Positions 9,001 through 11,766 of a stretch of DNA of 64,000 bases are shown piece by piece; position 1 is the first letter of the stretch; each line of letters begins with the position of its first letter. The stretch lies in the NCBI RefSeq assembly GCF_001447785.1, contig NW_015172097.1, forward strand, positions 47,296 through 111,295, written 5' to 3'. This DNA is from Gekko japonicus. Lineage: Eukaryota. A program made the position numbers.

Positions 9001-11766
9001 ACTAGTAATCCCCAATACGTATTATTAGGACATAGAGTCTTGTGAAACAGACCGTGCTTGCCCTGGGAGCAGCTACAAAGAGTGTAATGTATTGAAATGA
9101 TTACATGAATCACCTCATAGGACTCCCATGTTAAGCTTCAAGCCAGACCAGGGCTCCTCTGAGCGAACTTCCTATTGGTCGCTTCGTAACAGCGACCAAT
9201 CAGATCGATACCATTCCCTAGGAGGGAAAGACTCCCATTGGTCTTTATTCTAGCAATCTCATTGGTTGTTATTTGTAAATAGGCGTGGCTACATTAGCCC
9301 GGTTATGTTTAAAAGGAGCATAAGCTCCCACTGTTTTCTGTTCTGGTTTCTTACTGAGTTAGTGCTTGCTCGTTACTTCCAATAAAGCTGAATCACTTGC
9401 TGAATCACTGTACGAGTCCTTTGTTAGCGCGATCTAACAATTGGCGACGAAGGTGGGATGTTAGAGCAGGTAGGCAGCCCTGCGGACATCCACACTTCGG
9501 ACTCGGAAGAAAGCGGGCAGAGCACAGCAGCCGATCCGGCCGAAAGGCCCGGTACTGTCCCCGAGTCAGGGCAGAACCCTGTGTGCGGGGCTGAAATCCC
9601 AGTCGAGTCTGTGCCTGATCCAGGCTGTAGTGAACCCCACTCTGACCCACAACCTTGTCTGCCCGTGGAGCCTGCACCGCTCCGCAGGTCCCAGCGTTCG
9701 CGGCAAATGCCGACTTATCTGAAGGACTATGAGTGTAAATACTGTTGGAATAACTGATGTACAAAGGTTGATTGCATGTATGTAAATAATAAAACAATTG
9801 GGATGATGGCTTAACTTAGGGGGGAGGGAGTGTAATGTATTGAAATGATTACATGAATCACCTCATAGGACTCCCATGTTAAGCTTCAAGCCAGACCAGG
9901 GCTCCTCTGAGCGAACTTCCTATTGGTCGCTTCGTAACAGCGACCAATCAGATCGATACCATTCCCTAGGAGGGAAAGACTCCCATTGGTCTTTATTCTA
10001 GCAATCTCATTGGTTGTTATTTGTAAATAGGCGTGGCTACATTAGCCCGGTTATGTTTAAAAGGAGCATAAGCTCCCACTGTTTTCTGTTCTGGTTTCTT
10101 ACTGAGTTAGTGCTTGCTCGTTACTTCCAATAAAGCTGAATCACTTGCTGAATCACTGTACGAGTCCTTTGTTAGCGCGATCTAACAAAGAGGGTGGAAG
10201 TAATATTTACTTATAAAAACATATCAATGGCCTTTGCAGTTCAAAGTAGTTTAACAAGTTCTCCCCCCACCCCCAACTACACATGCATGCATAAAAAACT
10301 GTCTTTGCTGCAAATGCACGATTACGTTCCAAAAGAAAATGTTAATCGAACATAAACAATGAAGTTTATTATGCACTCGTAATATGCAATGTTGTAAGTG
10401 CTCTGGAAATAAAGTTGTATTTGTACCTGGGTATTCATTTGAATGCAGTCTAAATTAACCACACAGTATATGCTCTTTAAATAAATTCAGGCACCTTCCA
10501 TGACAGTTGCATCTCCAAACAGAACTAGATTTTCATGACAATATGTTAGCACAGCATTCAAAATAAGCTGTTGTCAGAAAACGAATTTAAAAATTTGCAC
10601 TGAGATAATCCCTACAAGTACAATTTTCCCATCACGCTGACAGAAAGTGCTTTTGCCCAACTCAGATGTAGCACATGGCTTTTAAGCACATAAATGTTTT
10701 CCAAAGAAATGCACCTTCAGTGAGAAGACTATTTTTATGTAACAATGTTAATATTTTCATCTGATGCTATGGATGATTATGCATTTACCACAAAGTGCAG
10801 TTTTGGAACTACATATTTATATGGATCCTTTCCACCCAATTTATTCTTCATGTTGAACATCTCCCTTTAATACAGATCTACATGGAACAGCTGCTCTTTT
10901 CCCTCACTCATGAGAGAATCTCAAAACAAATTATCTGTGTTGTTCTTCCAAAGAAAGGGGCAGGAGCATTATCAAGTGACAACATTTACAAGTCCTTAGT
11001 TGTGTTTGGAACCTGAACACCCTAATTCTTTTCATAACATATTTGTTTTCACAAAAACCTATCAAAAACACAAATTTAGGGGGGGAATGTAATAAACCTA
11101 TGTGCATTGCTGGAGACTTTAGTACTAATAGCATTGGAGCCCCAATTCACATGATCAAATTTAAGGGTCCAAACTCCACCTGATGCTCTTGCAGTGGCAC
11201 CAGCAATCAACCCAGGACCCAAACTGCCAGCACAACCCTGTACCTGCGTTCATGCACTAATTGGTTCATTTGGCAAATGAAGCACAGGCAAATGGTGCTG
11301 GTTCTGTTGCCATGGCACAAGCCGCATTGGACTCTGAAGCAGTTGAAGGGGACTTACAGAGTCAATCTGTTAGGGATGCAGCTCATTTGAACACAAAAAT
11401 TAAAGAAGAAGACATTGCCAAGATCTGAGAATCATGCAAGATCTAGCATATTCCTCCAAAGTACTGAGGGTGCACTATTCTGGGCACCAATGGGCTTGAG
11501 CGCTTGCACTTCAGATGTGGTAGCACCATCATCATGCTCTTAGAAAAGGAGGGAGAACTTTGTAAAGACATCACCTGATCATTTTTAAGGTCCATCATTA
11601 TTAGGGATTTTTCAAGAGGAAAACAAAGATATGTTGCATAAAAATCGAATAGGCTCCCTTCCCTCTAACTCAAAATTTGAAATAGGACGGGGCAACAAGC
11701 CTTTGTGTTGAATCCTGACACAGGCAGTGTGTAATGAGGCAGTGATGAAGCAGATAACTTTGGCTG

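What the first reader, a model, noticed from the sequence alone, without database searches (positions are those of the whole stretch)
9083..10187. Very young 1.1-kb TRIM-like retrotransposon with identical LTRs and all cis-signals intact
Seen: I could find no difference between the two 357-bp LTRs. The 5-bp TSD, PBS and PPT are intact, and the 391-bp interior keeps only the pol C-terminal tail. Known: LTRs are identical at insertion, so this one is recent. Inference: either an actively trans-mobilised miniature Gypsy family (TRIMs are much better described in plants than in amniotes) or a one-off deletion. It may be polymorphic between individuals.
Basis: partly seen in the sequence, partly recalled or inferred. 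Interest (0 to 1): 0.7.

Follow-up and report, generated by a model that had tools for sequence, protein, structure and literature searches.

The report
Young miniature LTR retroelement, family unassigned
A 1.1-kb retrovirus-like insertion with two identical end repeats and no recognisable genes sits here; it is a recent, ordinary kind of passenger element, and its parent family could not be identified.

Summary
The structure is real. Two 357-bp LTRs (9083-9439, 9831-10187) are identical at 357 of 357 positions. They have TG..CA ends and a 5-bp target-site duplication (AAGAG). An 18-nt primer-binding site lies 2 nt after the 5' LTR, and a 13-nt purine tract abuts the 3' LTR. CpG observed/expected is 0.68 in the element against 0.15-0.22 in its flanks, which fits a recent insertion.

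No test links the 391-bp interior to a pol tail or to Gypsy: Pfam, two word-index protein searches, an exhaustive phmmer scan and two Atlas searches gave nothing usable. The open frame is not unusual for this composition.

The same 18-nt primer-binding site, plus a 13-nt leader motif, recurs in a second, different LTR element cut by the window's left edge. At least two lineages here therefore use one primer.

Family versus one-off copy could not be tested, because no collection of the host genome was available. This is an ordinary non-autonomous LTR retroelement: a new member of a known kind, of low interest.

The parts
9078..9082 (+). left copy of the 5-bp target-site duplication (AAGAG)
   Evidence: identical to 10188-10192
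9083..9439 (+). 5' LTR, 357 bp, TG..CA ends. Inferred layout: U3 up to about 9336, R about 9337-9405, U5 about 9406-9439. Four CCAAT-box-like motifs start at 9174, 9196, 9237 and 9261. A 7-bp-stem palindrome lies at the U5 end (9421-9440).
   Evidence: (I3); the U3/R/U5 limits are inferred from the TATA-like and AATAAA positions
9308..9314 (+). TATA-like motif in the 5' LTR (likely RNA polymerase II promoter; inferred)
   Evidence: motif scan; function not tested
9381..9386 (+). AATAAA polyadenylation-signal motif in the 5' LTR; the same motif in the 3' LTR lies at 10129-10134
   Evidence: the 748-nt offset is
9442..9459 (+). primer-binding site, 18 nt starting TGG, 2 nt after the LTR; primer tRNA not identified
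   Evidence: the identical 18-mer sits at the same place in a second LTR element at 231..214 on the minus strand
9440..9830 (+). interior, 391 bp, 55% G+C; no recognisable gag, protease, reverse transcriptase, RNase H or integrase. All coding genes of a parent element are absent (at least one large deletion; junction not identified).
9428..9757 (+). stop-free frame of 109 codons (ATG at 9458) plus its stop codon; rich in P, E, S, G and D; coding status unproven
9526..9538 (+). 13-nt leader motif shared with the left-edge element (166..154, minus strand)
   Evidence: 1 of 1000 shuffles gives an exact shared word of 13 or more, and 15 of 1000 reach the local alignment score
9818..9830 (+). polypurine tract, 13 nt, abutting the 3' LTR
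9831..10187 (+). 3' LTR, 357 bp, identical to the 5' LTR
10188..10192 (+). right copy of the target-site duplication (AAGAG)
1..515 (-). neighbour, not part of the element: the 5' end of a second LTR element cut by the window start. Its LTR ends near 236; the LTR start near 515 is a guess by eye. The PBS is at 231..214, followed by a leader and an ATG at 96 that opens a frame running off the window. Its LTR sequence is unrelated to the 357-bp LTR.

Best explanation
This is a recently integrated, non-autonomous miniature LTR retroelement of 1,105 bp. It was already miniature when it integrated. Shown: two identical LTRs with TG..CA ends, a 5-bp target-site duplication, an 18-nt primer-binding site, a polypurine tract, and no recognisable protein domain. 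Inferred mechanism: RNA polymerase II transcribes the element from the 5' LTR (CCAAT-type boxes and a TATA-like motif), and the RNA ends after the AATAAA of the 3' LTR, giving roughly 0.8 kb. That RNA is reverse-transcribed from a tRNA annealed to the primer-binding site, with plus-strand priming at the purine tract. A retroviral-type integrase then inserts the copy and makes the 5-bp duplication. All proteins come in trans from an autonomous element that uses the same primer. The window holds the 5' end of a second LTR element with the same primer site, which shows that at least two lineages here share one primer. Superfamily (Gypsy, Copia, BEL or ERV) is unassigned. Whether this copy belongs to an amplifying family or is a single defective copy made during reverse transcription is open.
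For: The LTRs are identical at 357 of 357 positions, with TG..CA ends and the AAGAG duplication on both sides. The primer-binding site at 9442-9459 recurs 18 of 18 at the equivalent place in a second LTR element. A 13-nt leader motif is also shared; 1 of 1000 shuffles gives a shared exact word that long. The purine tract at 9818-9830 abuts the 3' LTR. CpG observed/expected is 0.68 in the element, against 0.22 and 0.15 in the 2-kb flanks and 0.25 window-wide. No retroelement domain was found in any of the 250 stop-free frames of 62 codons or more in the window. The element's own frames have no Pfam match at E up to 10. The R-U5-PBS-leader RNA folds better than shuffles, z = -2.3, with 3 of 200 shuffles as good. 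The flanks are unique in the window and no N run is nearby. Published passages state that non-autonomous LTR elements rely on proteins of other elements, and that TRIMs carry a PBS and PPT between two LTRs (PMC3983883; PMC10886601).
Against: Only one copy is visible: blastn of the LTR and of the interior against the 64-kb window found only the element itself. No autonomous partner with this LTR was seen, and the left-edge element's LTR is unrelated in sequence. The primer tRNA was not identified. Transcription, packaging and trans-complementation are inferred, not shown. Identical LTRs can also result from gene conversion (recalled knowledge, not tested).
Confidence: 0.62

Rival explanations
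1. Deletion in place: a full-length autonomous element inserted here recently, then lost nearly all of its interior in a later genomic deletion that happened to spare the primer-binding site and the purine tract.
For: Only one copy is visible in the window. The + frame ends 60 nt before the purine tract, as the last gene of a parent element would. The G+C-rich, CpG-rich interior (58.6% G+C over 9440-9760) has a mildly coding-like position bias.
Against: It needs two events within the short time allowed by 0 of 357 LTR differences. The usual in-place loss for LTR elements is LTR-LTR recombination to a solo LTR (established knowledge, recalled), and that did not happen here. No homology to any gag or pol was found to show that a parent interior was ever present.
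Confidence: 0.2
2. Assembly artefact: the assembler collapsed a full-length element, or joined reads from different copies, into a false 1.1-kb structure.
For: Perfectly identical repeats are the situation in which assemblers err. The window holds other near-identical duplications (12287-16529 and 60492-61358).
Against: The element lies in gap-free sequence, with the nearest N runs more than 5 kb away. A collapse across LTRs would give a solo LTR, not LTR-interior-LTR. The matching 5-bp duplication and the exact placement of the primer site and purine tract are what a true integration leaves. Reads could not be examined.
Confidence: 0.06
3. One reading: a miniature derivative of a Ty3/Gypsy element whose interior is the C-terminal tail of pol, belonging to an actively amplifying TRIM-like family.
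For: The structure fits a TRIM-like element and it is young. A basic motif near the end of the frame resembles tails of retroelement polyproteins, but this is recalled and comes from no call.
Against: No pol or integrase relative was found by Pfam at E up to 10. The word-index searches also failed: 169 candidates with none at E 0.01 or better, and no candidate at all for residues 60-109. The exhaustive scan gave 1 hit, a low-complexity repeat protein. The only named Atlas lead is Copia-type and scores 0.77, below the tool's usable level; the named-only search of the tail gave nothing. The open frame is not statistically unusual. The shared leader motif argues that the first third of the interior is leader. 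At 1,105 bp the element exceeds the under-1000-bp limit given for TRIMs in PMC10886601. Copy number is unknown.
Confidence: 0.12

Closest known systems
TRIMs (terminal-repeat retrotransposons in miniature), the RNA polymerase II-driven kind that PMC10886601 calls 'TRIMp2'
   Same: Two short LTRs with only a PBS, a short non-coding interior and a PPT between them; no proteins for mobilisation; a short target-site duplication (5 bp here); presumed dependence on an autonomous LTR element (passages of PMC10886601).
   Different: At 1,105 bp it is over the under-1000-bp limit stated in that paper. That paper lists TRIMs from plants, hymenopteran insects, cestodes and bivalves, plus fish Helenus, and names no amniote in the passages seen. 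Membership of a multi-copy family is not shown here.
Non-autonomous ERV-type elements of mammals (MaLR; ETn with its partner MusD)
   Same: Elements with LTRs in amniote genomes that lack their own genes and rely on another element's proteins. [quoted passage not shown]
   Different: No sequence relationship was tested or shown. The size and ancestry of MaLR and ETn are recalled, not from a call. The host taxon of this window was not established.
The second LTR element at the window's left edge (1 to about 515, minus strand)
   Same: Identical 18-nt primer-binding site, a shared 13-nt leader motif, and the same LTR layout of CCAAT-type boxes, a TATA-like motif and AATAAA; also CpG-rich, at 0.77.
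   Different: Its LTR sequence is unrelated by blastn. It opens a gag-like frame, while the miniature element has no recognisable gene. It is cut by the window edge, so its type is unknown, and its first 40 codons found no homologue.
Helenus, Ajax and Cassandra ('TRIMp3'), and retrozymes
   Same: Miniature non-autonomous LTR elements with a PBS and PPT.
   Different: Those carry a tRNA-like, 5S-like or hammerhead sequence in the LTR. Here ARAGORN found no tRNA in the element and Rfam gave 0 matches at E up to 1 over 8900-10400.

Membership tests
LTR retroelement (structural class) | Two direct long terminal repeats with TG..CA ends | tested here: met
   357 of 357 positions identical; ends TG..CA
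LTR retroelement (structural class) | Short target-site duplication flanking the element | tested here: met
   AAGAG at 9078-9082 and 10188-10192
LTR retroelement (structural class) | Primer-binding site next to the 5' LTR, complementary to a tRNA 3' end | tested here: inconclusive
   Position, TGG start, 18-nt length and reuse by a second element are met. Complementarity to a host tRNA could not be tested because no host tRNA set was available; the bacterial and archaeal scan was uninformative.
LTR retroelement (structural class) | Polypurine tract abutting the 3' LTR | tested here: met
   13 purines at 9818-9830
TRIM | No coding capacity for gag or pol | tested here: met
   No Pfam family at E up to 10 for the two long frames of the interior; no homologue found
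TRIM | Total length under 1000 bp (as stated in PMC10886601) | tested here: not met
   The element is 1,105 bp. A looser limit of about 1.5 kb used by other authors is recalled, not from a call.
TRIM | Multi-copy family with copies at different sites | not testable with these tools
   No further copy in the 64-kb window.
Ty3/Gypsy | Reverse transcriptase and integrase grouping with Ty3/Gypsy, with gene order PR-RT-RH-IN | not testable with these tools
   No pol domain is present in the element or anywhere in the window.
   No relative was found. A match limited to 25-30 residues could not reach significance in libraries of this size.
TRIMp3 (Helenus, Ajax, Cassandra) and retrozymes | tRNA-, 5S- or hammerhead-derived sequence inside the LTR | tested here: not met
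   ARAGORN found none in the element; Rfam found none at gathering score and 0 matches at E up to 1.

The most novel reading that the evidence does not exclude
The copy is one visible member of a currently amplifying, RNA polymerase II-driven miniature LTR family in a CpG-depleted, vertebrate-type genome. In this reading it is carried by an autonomous lineage that shares its primer-binding site and leader motif, like the element at the window's left edge. That would be a TRIM-type parasite-of-a-parasite system documented in an amniote, with insertions polymorphic between individuals.
Probability: 0.3. Interest if true: 0.4.

Novelty: new member of a known kind. Interest (0 to 1): 0.2.

Why it matters
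If it belongs to an amplifying family, it would mark ongoing LTR-element activity in this genome. It would also give presence/absence markers for population studies, and a small, tractable example of how non-autonomous LTR elements keep only cis signals. As a single copy it is an ordinary defective insertion. For annotation, the practical points are that the 109-codon frame should not be called a gene, and that 'Gypsy' should not be written on this copy without a parent element in hand.

Tried and rejected
**Protein homology for the interior frame (9428-9754, + strand)**
- Pfam at E up to 0.01 and up to 10 gave nothing.
- The word-index search of longer proteins had 169 candidates, none at E 0.01 or better.
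- The same search limited to residues 60-109 had no candidate at all.
- The exhaustive scan of 1.84 billion representatives gave 1 hit at E 6.5e-5. It is a 309-aa internally repetitive, low-complexity protein, judged spurious.
- The Atlas search gave a best score of 0.88 to an unnamed cluster and a Copia-type lead at 0.77. The named-only search of the tail gave no usable hit.

**The left-edge element's start**
- The 40-aa version had 38 candidates, none at E 1 or better.

**Primer tRNA and other copies**
- A full-text search for the 16-mer of the primer site found 0 papers.
Two tRNA genes lie among them, and neither overlaps a match, so these are chance matches.

**Is the frame coding?**
- Frame-length shuffles: 87 of 2000 reach the observed value.
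- Codon-position composition: chi-square 11.7, reached by 343 of 5000 shuffles, and 3 of 40 control windows are as high. Neither test is significant.

**An autonomous partner in the window**
- All 250 stop-free frames of 62 codons or more were scanned with Pfam.
- Only a hAT dimerisation domain (31810-32019, minus strand) passed E 0.001.
- Three matches to families of unknown function at E 0.002-0.01 fell below their curated cut-offs.

**Literature**
- One search was badly posed (58,760 papers) and is not used.
- (the TRIM phrase plus 'lizard') found 2 papers, on honey bee and bivalves by title.
- The vertebrate transposable-element review PMC5381603 has 0 occurrences of TRIM, LARD or MaLR.

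**Host taxon**
- It was not established by any search.

Full report
**1. Observation**

The sequence at 9083-10187 is an LTR-interior-LTR structure.
- The two LTRs (9083-9439 and 9831-10187) are 357 bp each and differ at 0 positions. The repeat finder reports the pair at 100% up to its 300-nt display limit.
- The LTRs begin TG and end CA. The five bases AAGAG lie immediately outside both ends, at 9078-9082 and 10188-10192.
- The identical stretch is really 361 nt, because three bases before and one base after the LTRs also match.
- An 18-nt stretch beginning TGG (9442-9459) follows the 5' LTR after 2 nt. A run of 13 purines (9818-9830) touches the 3' LTR.
- The interior is 391 bp.
- The nearest N runs are more than 5 kb away, and 1 kb of flank on each side is unique in the window.
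- Two identical 357-bp repeats, combined with a matching 5-bp duplication, cannot be chance.

**2. Youth**

- Zero differences in 357 bp gives an upper age bound, not a date. By arithmetic, the 95% limit is 3.0/(2 x 357 x rate). That is about 4 million years at an assumed 1e-9 per site per year, and about 2 million years at 2e-9.
- An independent sign comes from CpG content. CpG observed/expected is 0.68 in the element (0.67 in the LTR, 0.68 in the interior). It is 0.22 and 0.15 in the 2-kb flanks and 0.25 over the window.
- The element has therefore not yet suffered the CpG decay of its surroundings. 'Recent' is supported.

**3. What the interior is**

A stop-free + frame of 109 codons runs from 9428 to 9754, with an ATG at 9458 and a stop at 9755-9757, 60 nt before the purine tract. 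I could not support that.
- Pfam gives no family at E up to 10.
- The word-index search among longer proteins had 169 candidates, none at E 0.01 or better.
- The same search limited to residues 60-109 had no candidate.
- The exhaustive scan of 1.84 billion representatives gave one hit, E 6.5e-5, to a 309-aa internally repetitive, low-complexity protein that I judge spurious.
- The Atlas gave nothing at 0.9 or above. Its only named lead, at 0.77, is a Copia-type cluster, not Gypsy. The named-only search of the tail gave nothing.

The open frame itself is weak evidence.
- Three of six frames are open for 90 codons or more within the interior. The longest open stretch (125 codons, on the minus strand) is reached by 87 of 2000 shuffles.
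- The codon-position bias of the + frame is reached by 343 of 5000 shuffles and by 3 of 40 control windows.

A match limited to the last 25-30 residues could not reach significance in such libraries, so the pol-tail idea is unproven rather than excluded.

**4. A second element with the same primer site**

- The only other match to the interior in the window is the 18-nt primer site, 18 of 18, at 231..214 on the minus strand.
- There it sits 4 nt after the end of a different LTR. It is followed by a leader and an ATG at 96 whose frame runs off the window.
- This is the 5' end of a second LTR element. Its LTR is unrelated by blastn to the 357-bp LTR, but it has the same layout: CCAAT-type boxes, a TATA-like motif and AATAAA, read by eye. 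It is also CpG-rich, at 0.77.
- The two leaders share an exact 13-mer, at 9526-9538 and 166..154. It lies 67 nt after the primer site in the miniature element and 48 nt after it in the left-edge element.
- One of 1000 dinucleotide shuffles gives a shared word that long, and 15 of 1000 reach the local alignment score.
- This suggests that the first third of the miniature element's interior is leader rather than pol. It also suggests that at least two lineages in this genome use one primer tRNA.

**5. Signals in the LTR**

- Four CCAAT-type motifs, in either orientation, start at 9174, 9196, 9237 and 9261.
- A TATA-like motif lies at 9308-9314 and AATAAA at 9381-9386.
- By inference, U3 ends near 9336, R near 9405 and U5 at 9439. 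The transcript would be about 0.8 kb.
- The U5 end is a 7-bp-stem palindrome (I3).
- The R-U5-PBS-leader RNA (9337-9600) folds at -98.5 kcal/mol, z = -2.3, with 3 of 200 shuffles as good.
- No tRNA-, 5S- or ribozyme-like sequence lies in the element. It is therefore not of the Helenus, Ajax, Cassandra or retrozyme kind.

**6. Surroundings**

- All 250 stop-free frames of 62 codons or more in the window were scanned with Pfam. No gag, protease, reverse transcriptase, RNase H or integrase domain was found.
- The only match at E 0.001 or better is a hAT dimerisation domain at 31810-32019, minus strand.
- The window therefore holds no autonomous partner, apart from whatever continues leftwards from position 1.
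- The host taxon was not established by any search. The strong CpG depletion fits a methylated, vertebrate-type genome.

**7. Mechanism**

The best reading is a non-autonomous LTR retroelement that integrated as a miniature copy.
- Transcription starts in the 5' LTR.
- Reverse transcription is primed by a tRNA on 9442-9459, with plus-strand priming at 9818-9830.
- A retroviral-type integrase inserts the copy and leaves the 5-bp duplication.
- All proteins are supplied by another element.

The structure is shown; the steps are inferred from the established replication scheme of LTR elements.

**8. Comparison with what is known**

- Structurally this works like a TRIM of the polymerase II-driven kind.
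- By the under-1000-bp limit given in PMC10886601 (passages seen), it is slightly too long at 1,105 bp, and family status is unknown. I therefore do not file it as a TRIM.
- That paper's passages list TRIMs from plants, hymenopteran insects, cestodes and bivalves, plus fish Helenus.
- In amniotes, non-autonomous LTR elements are well known in mammals. PMC3983883 (passages) says some LTR retrotransposons rely on proteins of a different element, and that new MaLR insertions cause mouse mutations.
- A search for the TRIM phrase together with 'lizard' found 2 papers, on honey bee and bivalves by title.
- The vertebrate transposable-element review PMC5381603 has 0 occurrences of TRIM, LARD or MaLR.
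- These searches cover only the held library.

**9. Verdict**

This is a real, young, complete-looking miniature LTR retroelement: an ordinary kind of thing and a new member of a known kind. The 'Gypsy' and 'pol tail' labels are unsupported, and the family-or-one-off question is open. Interest is low unless a genome census shows an amplifying family.

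Noticed in passing
window 1-515, minus strand: The 5' end of a second LTR element, cut by the window start. It has the same 18-nt primer-binding site as the miniature element, an unrelated LTR, a gag-like ATG at 96, and CpG observed/expected of 0.77.
   Followed up: partly
window 12287-16529: Head-to-tail duplication of a 2.1-kb unit (12287-14409 and 14410-16529), 97.2% identical over 2145 aligned columns with 47 gap columns. It contains SINE-like inverted pieces. It could be a young tandem duplication or an assembly effect.
   Followed up: partly
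window 60492-61358: A 298-nt direct repeat at 99.3% identity with 271 nt between the copies. No TG..CA ends were seen by eye, so it looks like a 569-bp unit duplicated 1.5 times rather than an LTR pair.
   Followed up: partly
window 20044-20727: Tandem array of a 142-143-bp unit, about 4 copies, 79% matches.
   Followed up: no
window 26295-26365: A tRNA-Ala (GGC)-like sequence (ARAGORN; Rfam tRNA at 41.6 bits) inside the most G+C-rich part of the window (52.6% at 26-28 kb). Whether it is a gene or a SINE head was not determined.
   Followed up: no
window 31810-32019, minus strand: A hAT-family C-terminal dimerisation domain (E 5.9e-5, above the curated cut-off), beside the N run at 31658-31792. 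It is a remnant of a hAT DNA transposon.
   Followed up: no
window 3387-3516, 34738-34931 and 54654-54845; also 7089-7257, 13001-13207, 14322-14409 and 16443-16650: Two dispersed short repeat families in both orientations, 78-92% alike, probably SINE-like. They were not identified.
   Followed up: no
window 4071-4260 and 11585-11761: Two adjacent blocks of about 80 nt, 80-83% alike, recur 7.5 kb apart on either side of the miniature element. This is a dispersed repeat or an old segmental copy.
   Followed up: no
window 3135-3284, 23120-23416, 23702-24203 and 31658-31792: Four N runs totalling 1084 bases. They were left as they are.
   Followed up: no
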